Shown here: positions 17,625 through 23,451 of the stretch, in pieces
How positions within the stretch are numbered: position 1 is the first letter of the stretch
Layout of the letters: every line of letters starts with the position of its first letter
Origin: a virus
Lineage: Duplodnaviria; Heunggongvirae; Uroviricota; Caudoviricetes
Length of the DNA: 40,429 nt
IMG/VR virus record: IMGVR_UViG_2529293138_000011
Span: 1 to 40,429 of that record
Strand: one strand, 5' to 3'
Program-made: the position numbers and the translations under genes
The notes under the pieces: generated by a model
Database searches by the model: none
What the model was told of the DNA's origin: nothing
Seen by the model: the letters and a program-made list of their open reading frames with translations, nothing else

Positions 17625-19124
17625 TTAAGTTCTCCGTGCGATGGGCCTGATTGGGGCTGGTATCTTTTTCTCTTTTGGTTTTTTGATGTCGCGCATCATT
17701 TTTGCGAAGCGACGCATCATGTATGCATAGCGAACGGCTGAGAGAACGTCGTCGTTAAGCTTGACGATTTTCCCGTTTTCATCACGGTGATAGAGACGGA
17801 ACTCCTCAAAGAATGGCTCACAGGTGTTGAATACTTTGAAGCGACCATCGAGCATCATGTCTCGCAATTCAGTGATGCCAGGCTCAACAGCATTACCGCC
17901 ATCAGGCCATGTCGCATGCTCCTGCAACATCATAAATCCAGCGTCTGCATACTGCCCTTTGAGCTGCTCACCACCGCCCTTCTCATGCTGGTTTCCGTCA
18001 TGAGGCCATGCTGTTGGCACTTTATGCGCCCATGATTTAACGGCTCCCCACGCCTGAACGGCTGTTTTTTCTTTCGCCTTCCACACGCGTGAAACGTAGA
18101 TTGTGTCTGCGTCCTTATCCCACCAAAGCTGAACCTGCGCCTGTGGGTGATCCCATCCGAAATCCATCCCGCCAATTACGTAGAAGTGATCAGGGCACTC
18201 AAACGGCTGACACTTAATCGTCTCTTCCGGTATCTGGAAGATTCGACCGCTACCCATCGTAGGAATACCGCGAGCACGCGCCTCTCTCTCATGCTCAGGA
18301 TAGGATGCGATGATTTGCTCTTTCTGCTCGTCGGTGTAGTGCTCAGCGTCATAGATGGTCATGTTGACCACTTTCTGCGACTTGCTGGGATTCTTCAGGA
18401 ACTTGGTAACAACGTCAGACATCCCCATCAGCGGGGTAAACGTCAGAATTGAGAATTGACCGTATTTGTTGGTACGGGTAAGACCTTCGCCATAAATGCT
18501 GTATGGTGGTTCTTCGTCAAACCACACGCCGTGGATTGTGTCACCCTGCCAGCGAGCGCGGCCTTGCGAGTATGGCTTGAAGTAGCAGATTGAAATGCCA
18601 TCTTCAACGCCATCAGCCGTGTGATGCTTAACCAGAAGATGATCAACAAGGTTCGGAAAGAAAGGAGACTTCTTCCAGCTAATGATGTCCTCTTTCGGTA
18701 TGGAACCGTAGCCTGGCTCGTCATTCTCTTCGATACGACCGCACAGGATGCGTTGAGTCGTTTTAGTTACAGTCTCGTTTGTCTCGCCACCAATCCAGAA
18801 GACAACAGGCTCATAGAAACGCTTACCTTTCCACTCCCCGCCATATTTACCATCTGCCGGATAGCCTTTTGTTCCCGGATAACGCCCGGTAAGGTGAAAC
18901 GCGACTTCAGCAGCACCAGTAAATGACTTACCAAGCTGGTTACCAGCCATAAAACATCGCTCTGGATAGTCATGCCCGGCGTCGATGAACTCACGCTGTT
19001 TGCTGTATGGCGTAAATTCATATAGCAGGTGTGTGTTCCGGTAGTTCTCTTCTTCTTCGAGTAGCTCGAGCAACTCGATTTGCTCTTCGTCGCTCAGGTT
19101 ATCAAGAATCGCGTCCAGTTCCAC
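17625..19124 (-). CDS. Terminase large subunit, P22 gp2-like
   Basis: 499 aa, same length as P22 gp2; ATPase and nuclease arrangement; follows the small subunit. Confidence 0.9.
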
Positions 19125-19590
19125 GGTTGAATAGCTCCTTGATACGAGAGCGTCGCTTATCGCGATCCCCCTTATCAGGTGTCACGTCTTCAACTTGCGA
19201 CTGCTCTTTGAGGCCCAAATCACGGGCGATGATGTTAGCGTTGAGAAGGTCAGCGGCTGCGCCAGAGAATTTCTGGTCGTAGATGATGTCTTCCGCTCGT
19301 GATGTGACGTCAGAAAAACCTTCCATTGACCGGAAGGTTCCCCATGTTTGCCTGGTGATATCAAGGAAGGTACACAATCCTGAAATAGTCATGGCTCGCA
19401 TCTTAGGGACATTAGCCTTAATTATTTCTCCCTGATATGAAAATACCTTACCCTCCCATAGCGGGTTATCATCAGCCCACTCGAAGTATTCACAACAAGC
19501 AGCCCACAGCGCCTCAGGCGATTCGAATTTAGGATTTCGCCCATGACTACTGCGGGCCTCCCAAAATCGGTTGCCCTTTGGTGCTGCCAT
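19102..19590 (-). CDS. Terminase small subunit, P22 gp3-like (the pac site is expected inside this gene)
   Basis: 162 aa [50 protein letters not shown], matches P22 gp3. Confidence 0.9.
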
Positions 19591-19669
19591 ATTGATTATT
19601 TCCCTTCTGCTTGCTTATCCCATTCATCGCGGAATTTGGATGGGTTGTCGAAACCTTGAGTTGCCATGT

Positions 19670-19912
19670 TTATGCTCCGGTGGTGAACAGGTCTAACGCT
19701 TCCTTCGATTTACGCACCGCTTCGATAGTGCGAGATGTGAAGTCTGGATTTGCACCGCCATCGTTGTAGTGCAACTTGAACAATTCCAGTTTCAGCTGGT
19801 CAGCACCAATGAATGCAAAAGCTTCCTCTGCCGCTGAATTGTTCTTAGATAGCAGTCGGTAAATTTCTAACTTGAATTTCTGTTCTTCAGTCATGGGAAT
19901 AATCTCTGCCAT
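19670..19912 (-). CDS. Hypothetical protein upstream of the terminase genes (P22 orf80 position)
   Basis: 80-aa ORF immediately upstream of the small terminase gene; no recognisable domain. Confidence 0.5.
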   Translation of the reverse strand: MAEIIPMTEEQKFKLEIYRLLSKNNSAAEEAFAFIGADQLKLELFKLHYNDGGANPDFTSRTIEAVRKSKEALDLFTTGA

Positions 19913-20239
19913 TGTTGGCTCCGTTTATCCGTTAAAAGGGATATCAGTTAAGTTATCCCGTGTAGGGTATAAGCCATTGTCGAGACCACTCATTGAATGG
20001 CCTCTGCAATAACCGATGTCTTTCCATCAGTCCGCCACCACAAAGAATCTTTTTTTGCCATAAGGCAGGGGGTTCATCTTTCAGTGGCTGCCAGTGTTAT
20101 TTCCCCACTTACTGGCTTGGGTTGTATCGCTGTACTGCCGTAACTGGTTGCCCAGAATAAATTCCGGTTTCATTATCAAGCCCACCCGTAGATGGGCTTT
20201 GTAATGAAGAGCTGTTATGAAAATTGCTCTAAACAAGCA

Positions 20240-20728
20240 TTAATAGCCATCAGAAGTAAGCGCTACAGATTTCAACCCCTCAATGTCATCCTTGGACAGG
20301 GCGAACCATTCACCGTGCTTTCTCTTTGCGGCAAATTTGCGATGAAGCATGTTTTCAGCTTCTCTTCCACCAGGGATCAGGCACTCAAGCTTCAAACAGT
20401 CTGGTCCAGAGTTGCCAAGCGATTTGATGCGTTGTGGAATGTTGGATGAATACCCAATTTTGGTTAGCCCAGTTTTCTTCGATGACAAAACGTATACCTG
20501 AGGAGGTTCTTTTCTCTGGTCTTCCATTACACGTCTCATTGTTGCCATAAGTCCGCCGTGCATCAGCATTTCAACAAAGAACGCTGACCGAACACCTGAC
20601 GACTTAAGCATGCCAGAAAATTCACTTGCCAATTCCATTAACTCTGCGATGTTTTCAGGAACTTTTTGGCAGTTATCTTCCTTGTATAAGGAAATCATTC
20701 TTTGAAGCTTTTCTTCTAATTGGTTCAT
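20240..20728 (-). CDS. GIY-YIG-like (T5orf172/MUG113-type) domain protein, moron
   Basis: From the internal Met MNQLEEKLQRM...; the C-terminal half VYVLSSKKTGLTKIGYSSNIPQRIKSLGNSG...ECLIPGGREAENMLHRKFAAKRKHGEWFALS has the T5orf172-type pattern. The track ORF's upstream extension runs through a terminator hairpin, so the start is placed at 20728. Confidence 0.6.
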   Translation of the reverse strand: MNQLEEKLQRMISLYKEDNCQKVPENIAELMELASEFSGMLKSSGVRSAFFVEMLMHGGLMATMRRVMEDQRKEPPQVYVLSSKKTGLTKIGYSSNIPQRIKSLGNSGPDCLKLECLIPGGREAENMLHRKFAAKRKHGEWFALSKDDIEGLKSVALTSDGY

Positions 20729-20872
20729 AGCGTCTTTACCTTTTAGAAAGTGAGCCTGTCTCACAGAAAAGCCGCCCGAGAGAGGTCGCCACCTATAACG
20801 GCATTTCTCAGGCTCGCTTACTGAAAGGCTCTCGTTAATATGCGCGTGAGATGCGCTGTGAAATTCAGATAT

Positions 20873-20895
20873 AAAAAAGCCCCGCACCGCGAGGC
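20873..20895 (-). terminator. Rho-independent terminator after the lysis cassette
   Basis: On the minus strand: GCCTCGCGGTGCGGGGC followed by TTTTTTAT. Confidence 0.6.
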
Positions 20896-20927
20896 TCATT
20901 AAATGGACTTTGTGATTTGCAAAAAAA

Positions 20928-21365
20928 TTATTTCAGGCACTGAGTCCTGATGTACTCCTGCAGGTAGTTAACCTGCGCGGTTATCCTGTCGATTCCACTT
21001 CGGAGACGGTAATAATTGAGTTCAGCATCTGCTGTAAGTCTTGGGATTTCTCCATTGCCCATGCTGCTGGCTCCGGTCGTTGACTTTGCACAGGTGGCGG
21101 CGACTTGCAGGCGCTTACGCCCAGCAGAAACATCAGCACGGAGGCTTTCGATAGTCGCGTTAGCATCAGCAAGCTCCTTTGTGTATCTGGCGTCGAGTTC
21201 TGCTACATCACGTTGACGCTTCTGCATATCAGCGATGATGGATGTGGCTTTATCGCGCTGCTCTTTGTAGGTCATGGCGTTATCACGGTAATGATTAACA
21301 GCCCATGACAGACAGACGATGATGCAGATAACCAGAGCGGAGATAATCGCGGTTACTCTGCTCAT
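20928..21365 (-). CDS. Rz: Rz i-spanin
   Basis: 145 aa, N-terminal TM then coiled coil, with Rz1 embedded in the +1 frame; follows endolysin R. Confidence 0.85.
20981..21172 (-). CDS. Rz1: Rz1 o-spanin lipoprotein embedded in Rz
   Basis: Embedded ORF with lipobox LLGVSAC followed by the proline-rich segment [16 protein letters not shown]. Exact start uncertain. Confidence 0.7.
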
Positions 21366-21838
21366 ACCTCAATCTCTCTGACCGTTCCGCCTGCTTCTTT
21401 GAATTTTGCAATCAGGTTGTCAGCCTTATGCTCGAACTGACCATAACCAGCGCCCGGCAGTGAAGCCCAGATATTGCTGCAACGGTCGATAGCCTGACGG
21501 ATATCACCGCGATCAATCATCGGTAAAGCGCCACGCTCTTTAATCTGTTGCAGTGCCACAGCGTCCTGGCTTTTCGGAGAGAAGTCTTTCAGGCCAAGCT
21601 GCTTACGATAGGCATCCCACCAACGGGAAAGAAGCTGGTAACGTCCGGCTGCTGTTGATTTGAGTTTGGGGTTTAGCGTGACAAGTTTGCGAGGGTGATC
21701 GGAGTAATCAGTGAATAGCTCCCCGCCTACAATGACGTCATAACCATGATTTCTGGTTTTCTGACGTCCGTTATCAGTTCCCTCTGACCACGCCAGCATA
21801 TCGAGGAACGCCTTACGTTGATTATTGATTTCCACCAT
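21362..21838 (-). CDS. R: Endolysin R (lambda-type lytic transglycosylase)
   Basis: 158 aa [51 protein letters not shown], essentially lambda R. Confidence 0.95.
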
Positions 21839-22145
21839 CTTCTACTCCGGCTTTTTTAGCAGCGAAGCGTTTGATAAGCGAACCAATCGAGTCAGTACCG
21901 ATGTAGCCGATGAACACGCTCGTTATATAAGCGAGATTGCTACTTAGTCCGGCGAAGTCGAGAAGGTCACGAATGAACCAGGCGATAATGGCGCACATCG
22001 TTGCGTCGATTACTGTTTTTGTAAACGCACCGCCATTATATCTGCCGCGAAGGTACGCCATTGCAAACGCAAGGATTGCCCCGATGCCTTGTTCCTTTGC
22101 CGCTAGAATGGCGGCTAACAGGTCATGTTTTTCTGGCATCTTCAT
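21822..22145 (-). CDS. S: Holin S (lambda S107/S105 dual-start motif Met-Lys-Met)
   Basis: 107 aa [64 protein letters not shown], essentially lambda S. Confidence 0.95.
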
Positions 22146-22598: not shown

Positions 22599-22730
22599 TT
22601 GCATTTTGCAGACCTCTCAGCCTGCGATGGTTGGAGTTCCAGACGATACGTCGAAGTGACCAACTAGGCGGAATCGGTAGTAAGCGCCGCCTCTTTTTAT
22701 CTCACTACCACAACGAGCGAATTAACCCAT

Positions 22731-23222
22731 CTATCCCATACTGGAGAATTCACCATGATATTTTATCCTGGCATTTTCCATTGCCTTTCTAGCCTCCTCG
22801 ATATCGTCAAAACACCCTACATGAATCCTTTTACCATTAACTCTAATTCTTCCAACCCACTTGTTTGCAGCAGAATTAAAAGTCACCCCCTTCACACCAG
22901 ATGAATTGTTTTTCCTCATCTTGCTGTTCCATGAGTTTTGAGTGTTAGTAACAACACGAAGATTGGCTATCCGGTTATCAGACCTATCACCATTAATATG
23001 GTCAATAACATCGGTTGGCCAATCATTGTAAACCATCAGCCATGCAATTCTATGGACATATAGCCGCATTCCATAAAGTTTTACCTGCAGATATCCATTT
23101 GTTTTATAGCCAACAACAGCACCATAGATAAATCTAGAGGACCGAGGTGGATTCTTCCATGTAAGAATTCCAGTATCTGGATTGTAATTAAAAAGTCTCA
23201 ATGCATCTTCACGTTTTAACAT
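22731..23222 (-). CDS. HNH homing endonuclease with AP2-like DNA-binding domain (moron inside the late leader)
   Basis: 163 aa. HNH motif DHINGDRSDNRIANLRVVTNTQN and an AP2-like segment GVKGVTFNSAANKWVGRIRVNGKRIHVGCFDDIEEARKAMENA. AT-rich. The stop lies immediately 5' of the lambda-homologous ATGGGTTAATTCGCTCG segment. Confidence 0.8.
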   Translation of the reverse strand: MLKREDALRLFNYNPDTGILTWKNPPRSSRFIYGAVVGYKTNGYLQVKLYGMRLYVHRIAWLMVYNDWPTDVIDHINGDRSDNRIANLRVVTNTQNSWNSKMRKNNSSGVKGVTFNSAANKWVGRIRVNGKRIHVGCFDDIEEARKAMENARIKYHGEFSSMG

Positions 23223-23414
23223 AGGCGAACCACATAGATATTAGAGCCTGCTGACATAGAAATATCACCACGAGAGAAGTCGCCAAAAGCGATATTTCTC
23301 AGGCTCTATTCCTATGTGCTCTCGAGTTTATGATGCGCATGTCAGTGCGCTTAGAACTTAAAGATGAGGTGGGTAAAAGCTGAAAGAATGTGAACGGATA
23401 TAAATCTGCCATTC

Positions 23415-23451
23415 TTTGGTCAAATTTACCCAACTTTATTCAAAAAGTCAA
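23415..23451 (-). promoter_or_regulatory. Late promoter pR' with Q-binding element (qut)
   Basis: The minus strand reads TTGACTTTTTGAATAAAGTTGGGTAAATTTGACCAAAGAATGG, near-identical to lambda pR' (-35 TTGACT, 17-bp spacer carrying the Q-binding element, -10 TAAATT), about 45 bp downstream of the Q stop. Confidence 0.75.

What the first reader, a model, noticed from the sequence alone, without database searches (positions are those of the whole stretch)
20240..20728. GIY-YIG/T5orf172-type domain protein in the post-lysis moron slot
A 162-aa protein with a C-terminal T5orf172/GIY-YIG-like domain and an uncharacterised N-terminal half sits between Rz and the terminase genes, after a terminator. 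Domains of this type occur in homing endonucleases and in some anti-phage defence proteins, so it may be a lysogen-expressed defence or mobility gene.
Basis: partly seen in the sequence, partly recalled or inferred. Interest (0 to 1): 0.45.

Follow-up and report, generated by a model that had tools for sequence, protein, structure and literature searches.

The report
Phage nuclease gene behind structured leader
A small, apparently active GIY-YIG-type DNA-cutting enzyme gene sits in the late operon of a P22-like phage as one of several swappable 'cargo' genes that all ride behind the same, apparently undescribed, folded RNA leader that hides their ribosome-binding site.

Summary

The 'lysogen-expressed defence moron' reading is not supported. 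I found no promoter, no DUF4041, and only a weak domain-level PADLOC hit. The gene is co-oriented in the Q-dependent late operon.

Between the terminator and the ATG lies a ~150-nt structured leader RNA whose long hairpin pairs an anti-SD with the Shine-Dalgarno sequence. Its covariation is strong, and Rfam has no match. The same leader precedes Rha, KilA-N, ANT, HNH-AP2 and a second T5orf172 family in other phages. A second copy in this window precedes an HNH gene. A homologue with its leader is a clean ~735-bp insertion between tail genes V and G.

Best reading: a selfish, homing-type or recombination-promoting late nuclease under translational throttling. The protein is a new member of a known kind; the leader is the more interesting part.

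The parts
20240..20728 (-). CDS, 162 aa: N-terminal three-helix bundle plus C-terminal T5orf172/MUG113 GIY-YIG nuclease domain
   Evidence: AF2 model pLDDT 87.5. 98% identical to HK106 gp64, which is annotated 'GIY-YIG nuclease family protein'.
20513..20728 (-). Codons 1-72: acidic, poorly conserved three-helix bundle (helices 3-20, 23-43, 49-71); no DNA-binding fold detected
   Evidence: secondary structure. Searches give only generic helical-bundle matches. SATB1 CUT domain at E=0.3, not significant; low conservation.
20264..20503 (-). Codons 76-155: GIY-YIG-fold nuclease domain. Family-invariant residues are Y79, K90-I91-G92, R100, E125, H129, E140-W141-F142.
20729..20876 (-). Conserved structured 5' leader RNA between the terminator and the ATG; shared with Rha, KilA-N, ANT, HNH and other T5orf172 cargo genes
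   Evidence: No real Rfam match.
20842..20856 (-). Leader helix P1: small hairpin GCGC-AUCUCAC-GCGC
   Evidence: Present in every single-sequence MFE fold. Compensatory variants are visible. Weakest helix in the counts (52-67% paired).
20738..20829 (-). Leader long hairpin (~92 nt). The base helix pairs anti-SD GCCUUU (20824-20829) with SD AAAGGU (20738-20743). A 6-nt 3' internal loop GUGAGA lies at 20759-20764. The apical hairpin AGGU-GGCG-ACCU lies at 20783-20794.
   Evidence: Same fold in 15 of 15 independent MFE predictions. z=-2.7 here, and -3.2 to -4.7 in three divergent copies. 79% of cells paired versus 40-51% in slid controls, and 20 of 37 pairs with double changes, on a structure-blind MAFFT alignment. 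90% paired and 24 of 37 on 63 distinct sequences; the base helix covaries at 11 of 11 pairs.
20877..20897 (-). Intrinsic terminator after Rz (GAGCCUCGCGGUGCGGGGCUU followed by a U-run)
   Evidence: Annotated as rho-independent terminator in HK106 and epsilon34.
20178..20199 (-). Hairpin AAGCCCAUCUACGGGUGGGCUU, 40 nt after the stop codon, with no U-run. It marks the downstream end of the exchangeable cargo segment.
   Evidence: homology with Rha, KilA-N and N7 cargo alleles resumes here. Fold.
19913..20239 (-). Conserved non-coding spacer that is an empty second cargo slot. In Sf6 and other prophages a Gp49-family gene (Sf6 gp66) sits at about 20014. Only its ATGAAC start remnant remains here.
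   Evidence: Folds with z=-5.7.
23220..23366 (-). Second, diverged copy of the same leader, ending on the ATG of the HNH-AP2 ORF
   Evidence: CM R1: 40.6 bits, E=5e-8 over the window. Fold z=-4.7.
22731..23222 (-). HNH_3 + AP2 endonuclease ORF (163 aa), inserted with its leader into the lambda-type PR'/6S leader between Q and the holin
   Evidence: Pfam HNH_3 E=5.7e-17 and AP2 E=5e-8. Sequence context.

Best explanation
The gene encodes a small, catalytically competent T5orf172-class GIY-YIG endonuclease. It is one interchangeable cargo of a cassette in the late operon of a P22-like phage. The cassette is a structured leader plus the ORF, usually followed by a terminator or hairpin.

Shown by sequence and tools:
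- The GIY-YIG fold and the conserved active-site residues.
- Purifying selection on the protein.
- No promoter detected by the consensus scan.
- Co-orientation with the late operon, downstream of PR' and a Q-type antiterminator ORF.
- A covarying leader hairpin that base-pairs the Shine-Dalgarno sequence.
- The same leader in front of Rha, KilA-N, ANT, HNH and T5orf172 genes.
- A clean presence/absence insertion of a homologous cassette between tail genes V and G.
- Occasional decay of copies.

Inferred:
- The gene is transcribed only in lytic growth, by Q-antiterminated read-through of the Rz terminator.
- It is translated at a low or gated level because the SD is sequestered. Opening could occur by RNase III cleavage at the asymmetric internal loop, or by another factor.
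- The protein nicks or cuts DNA of co-replicating related phage or prophage genomes at or near the slot. Recombinational repair, using the conserved leader and downstream spacer as homology arms, would then copy the cassette. This is homing-like, selfish inheritance at a mosaic boundary.
- Sequence recognition would have to come from the nuclease domain itself, from oligomerisation, or from a partner bound by the N-terminal helical bundle.
For: Domain, fold and residues:
-.
- All 41 intact copies keep Y79, K90, G92, R100, E125, H129 and E140.
- dN/dS is 0.14-0.15 against homologues about 86-87% identical in protein (dS about 0.5).

Late-operon setting:
- PR' and a 207-aa ORF homologous to lambda-type antitermination protein Q (annotated so in HK106, epsilon34 and GF4) lie upstream. 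All genes from Q to the terminase are on one strand.
- No minus-strand promoter-like site in 19500-21500.

Leader:
-.
- Many G-U pairs on this strand (e.g. CG:35/UG:23 at one pair) argue for an RNA-level, sense-strand structure.

Cargo spectrum behind the leader:
- 80 Rha, 17 KilA-N, 13 T5orf172, 3 HNH and 2 ANT among 118 leader hits with a callable downstream ORF.
- HNH-AP2 is an accepted homing-endonuclease architecture (PMC10448857).

Mobility:
- A cassette 97% identical in DNA is in the HK97-like siphovirus HK106 and in P22-like phages.
- It is present in only 80 of 5426 complete E. coli genomes, while the flanks are in about 2660.
- Homologue P0013 is inserted between V and G/T. The related phage PSTCR8lys has the empty site.
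- Other homologues sit among tail genes.

Decay:
- A nonsense codon in 2 of 43 copies, and an internally deleted HNH copy.

Precedents:
- T5orf172 proteins of phage ICP1 are putative HEGs at recombination boundaries, often next to terminase. Odn is a proven E180-dependent nuclease.
- RBS-sequestering hairpins regulate the T4 HEGs I-TevI/II/III and segB, and Aeh1 mobE (PMC2988022).
Against: - No sequence-specific DNA-binding domain was detected. The N-terminal half is an acidic generic helical bundle. By contrast, 87% of T5orf172 HEGs surveyed by Barth et al. carry zinc-finger DNA-binding domains.
- In the window's own slot there is never an 'empty' allele, only alternative cargo. Ordinary homologous recombination in conserved flanks can therefore explain the mosaicism without any nuclease.
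- Most leader cargo (Rha, KilA-N, ANT) are DNA-binding proteins, not nucleases. The shared theme may be regulation rather than homing.
- T5orf172 is a minority allele (about 11% of leaders sampled, 1.5% of E. coli genomes), so it is not sweeping.
- Nuclease activity, target, timing of expression and leader function are all untested.
- The Glu125 = I-TevI Glu75 equivalence rests on motif spacing and my reading, not on an alignment that reached that far (one search aligned only residues 78-102).
Confidence: 0.45

Rival explanations
1. Lysogen-expressed or infection-triggered defence / inter-phage competition nuclease. The protein would cut DNA of superinfecting phages or satellites, as ICP1 Odn cuts PLE origins or SNIPE cuts injected lambda DNA. 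The N-terminal bundle would act as sensor or adaptor.
For: - Weak PADLOC hit to candidate PDC-S57, E=5.9e-6.
- Sporadic distribution in prophages.
- A variable N-terminal domain next to a conserved nuclease is typical of arms-race proteins.
Against: - No promoter for prophage expression.
- The SD is sequestered.
- The terminator upstream insulates the gene in the lysogen.
- No DUF4041 and no transmembrane segment.
- The PADLOC hit covers only the nuclease domain (profile positions 3-83 of 212).
- No partner gene travels with it.
- It shares its expression context with Rha, KilA-N and HNH genes rather than with known defence genes.
Confidence: 0.2
2. A regulator or DNA-binding factor functionally equivalent to the other cargo (Rha-ORF11CD3, KilA-N, ANT). 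On this view the slot holds alternative late-phase modulators of phage or host gene expression or DNA transactions. The T5orf172 domain would act mainly by binding nucleic acid, as with the domesticated CapR lineage.
For: - An identical leader and slot are used by Rha and KilA-N genes.
- T5orf172 belongs to the Bro-N/KilA-N/Rha domain-shuffling network. One family member (P0030) appears from its sequence to be a Rha-type N-terminal region fused to T5orf172; I did not run it against Pfam.
- CapR, a relative of the ICP1 T5orf172 proteins' DNA-binding domain, works as a repressor.
Against: - CapR's activity resides in its zinc-finger domain, which is absent here.
- Strict invariance of the catalytic-type residues Y79, R100, E125, H129 and E140 down to 21% identity is what one expects of an enzyme, not a binding module.
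- HNH nucleases also use the leader.
Confidence: 0.15
3. An accessory nuclease for the phage's own late DNA metabolism. Candidate roles are helping concatemer processing or packaging (as HK97 gp74 HNH helps terminase), resolving branched DNA (Slx1-like), or degrading host DNA (as the single-domain GIY-YIG T4 EndoII does).
For: - Late-operon position next to the terminase genes.
- Best structural matches include the structure-specific nuclease Slx1/HIGLE, and T4 EndoII appears in the list.
- The lack of a DNA-binding domain fits a structure-specific or non-specific enzyme.
- In Klebsiella the homologue overlaps a downstream Endonuclease_NS gene.
Against: - The gene is dispensable and replaced by unrelated cargo in close relatives with the same packaging genes.
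- Homologues sit among tail genes far from the terminase.
- Nonsense alleles exist in otherwise intact cassettes.
Confidence: 0.1

Closest known systems
Escherichia phage HK106 gp64 (YP_007151734) / PHROG 4284 / NCBI 'GIY-YIG nuclease family protein' WP_016245257
   Same: 98% identical protein. Same terminator-leader-ORF-spacer cassette directly after Rz.
   Different: HK106 is an HK97-like cos siphovirus, not P22-like. Its cassette ends in a short remnant of the P22-type orf80 start before the gp74-like HNH gene, and its spacer has a 59-nt insertion. No function has been reported for it.
Salmonella phage epsilon34 gp68 / g341c gp64
   Same: Same length (161 aa), same two-domain architecture, same slot, and nearly the same leader (144 bits with model R1).
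   Different: Only about 30-33% amino-acid identity. It is a separate subfamily and is also uncharacterised.
Vibrio phage ICP1 T5orf172 homing-endonuclease genes and Odn (Gp88)
   Same: C-terminal T5orf172 GIY-YIG domain with conserved Arg and Glu. Phage-borne, enriched beside terminase and structural genes, and placed at boundaries of genetic exchange. Odn is a demonstrated nuclease.
   Different: ICP1 proteins carry N-terminal DNA-binding modules (CapR/DUF723/DUF4397 zinc fingers, RepA_N). This protein has a helical bundle with no detectable DNA-binding fold. ICP1 is a lytic myovirus.
T4-type free-standing and intron GIY-YIG/HNH homing endonucleases (I-TevI, SegB, MobE)
   Different: T4 enzymes have the nuclease at the N-terminus and a long C-terminal DNA-binding region. 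In T4 the hairpin is bypassed by an internal late promoter, and no such promoter was found here. The leader here is a conserved, portable element shared by unrelated cargo.
SNIPE (DUF4041 + GIY-YIG membrane nuclease) and PADLOC candidate PDC-S57
   Same: Related nuclease domain.
   Different: No transmembrane segment, no DUF4041, less than half the size, and in a late operon rather than a defence island.

Membership tests
GIY-YIG superfamily, T5orf172 (PF10544) / MUG113 (PF13455) branch | Profile-HMM match above the curated threshold | tested here: met
   MUG113 55.9 bits (cut-off 22.3) and T5orf172 41.7 bits (cut-off 20). A profile search finds 38,361 representative proteins sharing the domain.
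GIY-YIG superfamily, T5orf172 (PF10544) / MUG113 (PF13455) branch | GIY-YIG alpha/beta fold (beta-beta-alpha-beta-alpha) | tested here: met
GIY-YIG superfamily, T5orf172 (PF10544) / MUG113 (PF13455) branch | Active-site residues: Tyr of 'GIY', Tyr of 'YIG', Arg in helix 1, catalytic Glu, Asn/Glu near the C-terminus | tested here: inconclusive
   Y79 (=I-TevI Y6), G92 (=G19) and R100 (=R27) are aligned by hhalign and invariant. The second Tyr position holds an invariant Lys (K90). I-TevI E75 and N90 are equated with E125 and E140 by motif spacing only, not by an alignment. Both are invariant.
GIY-YIG superfamily, T5orf172 (PF10544) / MUG113 (PF13455) branch | Metal-dependent DNA cleavage | not testable with these tools
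   Needs biochemistry.
Free-standing homing endonuclease gene (HEG) | Presence/absence polymorphism at a precise intergenic site between conserved genes | tested here: met
   For the 51%-identical homologue P0013: about 735 bp (leader + ORF + terminator) lie between V and G in L016, and the site is empty in Providencia phage PSTCR8lys. In the window's own slot the alternative is a different cargo gene, not an empty site.
Free-standing homing endonuclease gene (HEG) | Sequence-specific DNA-recognition module attached to the nuclease | tested here: not met
   The N-terminal 72 aa form a generic three-helix bundle with no Pfam, PDB or fold match to a DNA-binding domain.
Free-standing homing endonuclease gene (HEG) | Cleavage of the HEG-less allele and super-Mendelian inheritance in crosses | not testable with these tools
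   Requires nuclease mapping and mixed-infection crosses.
Free-standing homing endonuclease gene (HEG) | Tight expression control (terminators, RBS-sequestering hairpin), as documented for T4/Aeh1 HEGs | tested here: met
   Terminator. SD/anti-SD helix with covariation at 11 of 11 pairs. Precedent in PMC2988022. This is supportive, not diagnostic.
Moron (independently expressed insert in a late operon, sensu Juhala/Hendrix) | Own promoter upstream of the gene | tested here: not met
   No promoter-like site on the minus strand in 19500-21500. Candidate hexamers are not conserved among leader variants. The consensus scan is crude, so a non-canonical promoter is not excluded.
Moron (independently expressed insert in a late operon, sensu Juhala/Hendrix) | Own terminator downstream; extra DNA relative to related phages | tested here: inconclusive
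   Homologues in L016, L006, L010 and L015 have a terminator right after the stop. In the window the downstream hairpin lacks a U-run. Extra DNA relative to a relative is shown for L016.
SNIPE / DUF4041-GIY-YIG defence nuclease | N-terminal transmembrane segment plus DUF4041 domain | tested here: not met
   No DUF4041 hit at E<=1. At 162 aa the sequence has no hydrophobic segment. SNIPE architecture.
PADLOC candidate system PDC-S57 | Full-length match to the system's protein model | tested here: not met
   24 bits, covering only profile positions 3-83 of 212, which is the nuclease domain.

The most novel reading that the evidence does not exclude
The ~150-nt leader may be a new, widespread class of portable cis-regulatory RNA of lambdoid phages. 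It would gate translation of selfish or accessory late-operon cargo (T5orf172 and HNH nucleases; Rha, KilA-N and ANT DNA-binding proteins) by sequestering the SD in a long hairpin. Opening might occur by RNase III cleavage at the conserved asymmetric internal loop, or by a trans-acting factor. The leader would also serve, with the downstream spacer, as a homology arm for cassette exchange. The T5orf172 nuclease would drive that exchange through breaks in rival alleles ('cassette-replacement homing') without a classical DNA-binding domain.
Probability: 0.3. Interest if true: 0.65.

Novelty: new member of a known kind. Interest (0 to 1): 0.45.

Why it matters
On its own the protein is one more uncharacterised T5orf172/GIY-YIG nuclease, already named as such by automatic annotation.

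What could matter is its setting. The segment after Rz in lambdoid phages (about half of complete E. coli genomes carry its flanks) turns out to be a cassette site. Nuclease genes and the Rha/KilA-N/ANT 'regulator' genes are interchangeable there, behind one conserved, covarying RNA leader that occludes the ribosome-binding site.

This gives three things:
- A concrete, testable handle on how these long-enigmatic Bro/KilA/Rha/T5orf172 genes are expressed.
- A candidate new cis-regulatory RNA family for Rfam.
- A tractable E. coli / lambda-P22 system to test whether T5orf172 nucleases create the mosaic boundaries of temperate phages, as proposed for lytic ICP1 phages.

Tried and rejected
- A profile search of PDB sequences found no GIY-YIG entry. 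The best hit was the SATB1 CUT domain at E=0.3 for aa 22-82. I rejected it as not significant, and the model shows long helices rather than a compact HTH.
- NCBIfam gave no hit.
- hhalign to I-TevI aligned only the first 25 residues of the domain.
- The search for related loci with the divergent alignment A4 failed. With A2 it returned mostly near-identical copies.
- Sigma-70 promoter search found none on the gene's strand. A hand-read TTCACA-16-TATTAA in the leader lacks the -7 T and is not conserved.
- I rejected the 219-aa upstream-extended ORF, and the small ORFs in the spacer (30-51 aa). HK106 interrupts the latter, and the spacer is explained as an empty Gp49 slot.
- Rfam: nothing real at gathering score or at E<=1.
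- Literature: nothing on HK106 gp64, epsilon34 gp68, or an RNA element upstream of Rha/KilA-N genes. I could not retrieve the Henthorn & Friedman 1995 paper on IHF control of rha. That link is only my recollection.
- RNAalifold on the raw MAFFT alignment gave a partial, partly different structure. I preferred the structure common to all 15 single-sequence folds and then tested it.
Full report
**1. The observation**

The ORF listing and translation confirm a 162-aa ORF on the minus strand. ATG is at 20728 and the stop at 20240-20242.

Domain searches:
- Pfam gives MUG113 (PF13455, E=6.6e-15, aa 90-151) and T5orf172 (PF10544, E=1.7e-10, aa 78-150), both well above gathering score. The canonical GIY-YIG model reaches only E=0.2 for aa 77-104.
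- The whole protein matches PHROG 4284, function unknown (E=6e-88).
- NCBIfam has nothing.
- PADLOC gives only a 24-bit hit of the nuclease domain to candidate PDC-S57.
- There is no DUF4041 hit.

Neighbourhood, all on the minus strand:
- holin 21822-22145
- lysozyme 21362-21838
- Rz 20928-21365
- this gene
- orf80/DUF2560 19670-19912
- TerS 19102-19590
- TerL 17625-19124

An intrinsic terminator lies at 20897-20877. The window is a P22-like genome: it carries sar RNA at 4189-4256, and close prophage relatives are annotated with P22-type capsid, scaffold and portal genes.

**2. The protein**

The AlphaFold model (pLDDT 87.5) has two parts:
- an N-terminal three-helix bundle (helices 3-20, 23-43, 49-71)
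- a beta-beta-alpha-beta-alpha domain

- also PD-T4-3, AtGRXS16-N, UvrC, T4 EndoII and Eco29kI

Conservation:
- Across 18 two-domain homologues down to 21% identity, the invariant residues are Y79, K90, I91, G92, R100, E125, L128, H129, E140, W141 and F142.
- The same set (apart from L128) is invariant in a 35-sequence domain alignment.
- hhalign against I-TevI equates Y79 with Y6, K90 with the Y17 position, G92 with G19, and R100 with R27.
- By motif spacing (E..LH..F....R.HGEWF versus I-TevI E75...GYN90), I equate E125 with the catalytic Glu and E140 with the Asn position. This last step is my inference, not an alignment result.

Selection and decay:
- All 41 intact near-identical copies in IMG/VR keep these residues.
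- dN/dS against homologues about 86-87% identical in protein is 0.14-0.15 (dS about 0.5).
- Two copies carry a nonsense codon at position 25.

The N-terminal half is acidic and poorly conserved. It matches no DNA-binding domain; the best hit is the SATB1 CUT domain at E=0.3.

**3. Distribution**

- Among isolated phages, only HK106 (an HK97-like siphovirus; gp64, annotated 'GIY-YIG nuclease family protein') and Chlobot have the same protein.
- epsilon34 gp68 and g341c gp64 are 33%-identical relatives in the same slot.
- 80 of 5426 complete E. coli genomes carry the full cassette.
- Its non-coding flanks (window 19913-20207 and 20724-20927) occur in about 2660 genomes around other genes: Rha, KilA-N and Gp49.
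- Alignments show that homology with a Rha allele runs up to and through the ATG, and resumes about 35 nt after the stop at the hairpin AAGCCCAUCUACGGGUGGGCUU (20178-20199).

More distant two-domain homologues sit at different late-operon sites:
- In the post-lysis slot of prophages with unrelated lysis and terminase genes (P0014, P0009).
- Between the tail tube gene V and the chaperone genes G/T (P0013, 51% identical).
- Among tail or structural genes (P0016, P0019).

For P0013 an empty-site relative exists. In Providencia phage PSTCR8lys the V terminator is followed directly by G. In L016 about 735 bp (leader, ORF and a terminator) are inserted at that point.

**4. The leader**

The ~150 nt between the terminator and the ATG travel with the gene into these different contexts. 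They are identical or homologous upstream of Rha, KilA-N and epsilon34-gp68-type genes.

Fifteen divergent leaders folded independently all give the same structure:
- a small hairpin P1
- a ~92-nt hairpin whose basal helix pairs GCCUUU (20824-20829) with the Shine-Dalgarno AAAGGU (20738-20743)
- a 6-7-nt internal loop on the 3' side (GUGAGA, 20759-20764)
- an apical hairpin closing a GGCG loop (20783-20794)

Covariation on a structure-blind MAFFT alignment:
- 79% of cells pair, versus 40-51% when partners are slid by 1-3 columns.
- 20 of 37 pairs show double (compensatory) changes, versus 7-12 in the slid controls.
- No shuffle out of 500 reaches the observed values.

Covariation on 63 distinct sequences realigned with covariance model R1:
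- 90% of cells pair, versus 37-53% in slid controls.
- 24 of 37 pairs are compensatory.
- All 11 pairs of the SD/anti-SD basal helix covary.
- This alignment is fitted to the model and therefore leans towards the structure.

Other points:
- Frequent G-U pairs on this strand argue for an RNA structure in the sense orientation.
- The long hairpin folds better than shuffles, with z=-2.7 here and -3.2 to -4.7 in three divergent copies.
- Rfam 15 has no real match at gathering score or at E<=1.
- My literature searches found no description.

**5. What rides behind the leader**

That gave 118 leader hits with a callable downstream ORF:

| Cargo behind the leader | Count |
|---|---|
| Rha (+ORF11CD3) | 80 |
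| KilA-N | 17 |
| This T5orf172 family | 10 |
| epsilon34-type T5orf172 | 3 |
| HNH_3 (2 with AP2) | 3 |
| ANT/KilAC | 2 |
| Short or unassigned ORFs | 3 |

- 93 of the 120 leader occurrences directly follow an Rz like the window's, and two follow Q.
- Model R1 finds a second, diverged copy in this window at 23220-23366 (-), 40.6 bits, E=5e-8. It ends on the ATG of the HNH_3+AP2 ORF 22731-23222.
- That cassette is inserted into the lambda-type PR'/6S leader. PR' is TTGACT 23451-23446 and TAAATT 23428-23423. The 6S-like sequence 'ATGGGTTAATTCGC' resumes at 22730.
- A copy of this HNH gene in L096 has an internal deletion.

The leader is therefore a portable 5' element for exactly the gene classes that form the Bro/KilA-N/Rha/T5orf172 domain-shuffling network, plus HNH homing-type nucleases.

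**6. Expression**

- No sigma-70-like site is found on the gene's strand from 19500 to 21500.
- Candidate hexamers in the leader are not conserved.
- The gene is co-oriented with the late operon, downstream of PR' and a 207-aa ORF homologous to the lambda-type antiterminator Q.
- From established lambda biology, Q-modified RNA polymerase reads through intrinsic terminators. Transcription is therefore expected in late lytic growth, not in the lysogen.
- Translation is expected to be throttled by the SD-sequestering hairpin.
- The same logic (terminators plus RBS-sequestering hairpins on long polycistronic mRNAs) is documented for the T4 HEGs I-TevI/II/III and segB, and for Aeh1 mobE (PMC2988022).
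- How the hairpin is opened here is unknown. RNase III cleavage at the asymmetric loop is my speculation, by analogy with T7 processing signals.

**7. Interpretation**

Best supported: a catalytically intact T5orf172-class GIY-YIG nuclease that behaves as a selfish, homing-like or recombination-promoting cargo of a late-operon cassette.

In favour:
- Intact and selected active-site residues.
- Sporadic distribution.
- A DNA-level 97%-identical cassette in unrelated backbones.
- A clean insertion polymorphism.
- Decaying copies.
- The same leader is used by HNH-AP2 genes.
- ICP1 T5orf172 HEGs are a precedent: they lie at exchange boundaries and near terminase, and Odn is a proven nuclease.

Against:
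- No recognisable DNA-binding domain.
- Alternative cargo rather than empty sites in this slot.
- Most leader cargo are non-nuclease DNA-binding proteins.
- Nothing is tested biochemically.

Rivals, set out with their evidence in the structured fields:
- defence / competition nuclease (0.2)
- regulator equivalent to Rha/KilA-N (0.15)
- accessory nuclease for phage DNA metabolism (0.1)

**8. Novelty and score**

- The protein is a new, uncharacterised member of a known kind, already auto-annotated as a GIY-YIG nuclease.
- The unexpected result is the conserved, covarying, apparently undescribed leader RNA shared by nuclease and 'regulator' cargo. This raises the interest above what the ORF alone deserves.

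Noticed in passing
window 22731-23420 (-): An HNH_3+AP2 endonuclease gene (163 aa) with its own copy of the leader is inserted into the lambda-type PR' transcript, a few nucleotides after the -10/pause region. The lambda 6S-like sequence resumes immediately after its stop codon (22730). Related prophages have tRNA genes or nothing there. It looks like a free-standing homing endonuclease sitting in the qut/6S region.
   Followed up: partly
window 19913-20239 (-): The 327-bp spacer between the nuclease gene and orf80 is conserved in about 2600 E. coli genomes and folds far better than shuffles (z=-5.7). It corresponds to the upstream and downstream flanks of a Gp49-family gene (Sf6 gp66) that is absent here. 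Only its RBS and ATGAAC start remain, near 20017. So it is a second, empty cargo slot.
   Followed up: partly
window ~19935-19962 (-): The hairpin GGGAUAACUUAACUGAUAUCCC followed by UUUUAA lies just upstream of the orf80/DUF2560 RBS. A 68-bp stretch including it (19924-19991) occurs alone in many E. coli genomes, including O157:H7, with no annotation.
   Followed up: no
window 4189-4256 (+): sar antisense RNA (Rfam RF00262, 92 bits) marks a P22-type immI (ant) region.
   Followed up: no
L015 4880-5003 and 5600-5726: In a GC-rich prophage, a T5orf172 homologue and the adjacent KilA-N-P63C gene are each preceded by terminators and by a different repeated leader (UGCAGGAUAGG...CCUUUCCUGCA). In both, the GGAG-type SD again pairs with an upstream CUCC-type anti-SD. 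This may be an analogous leader family in another lineage.
   Followed up: partly
L011 5489-6187: In Klebsiella variicola the 76%-identical homologue overlaps by 4 nt a downstream Endonuclease_NS (non-specific nuclease) gene, which suggests a two-nuclease operon.
   Followed up: no
Cargo proteins from L177, L153, L083 and L123: The Rha and KilA-N cargo proteins behind the leader share a C-terminal ~50-aa module (ORF11CD3, motif ...M..WG..(K/R)K..L...L). The T5orf172 and HNH cargo lack it.
   Followed up: partly
L001 (HK106) ~760-830: HK106, a cos-type HK97-like phage, retains the first ~60 nt of a P22-type orf80/DUF2560 gene between the cassette and its gp74-like HNH gene. This implies the cassette was acquired from a P22-like genome by recombination ending inside orf80.
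   Followed up: partly
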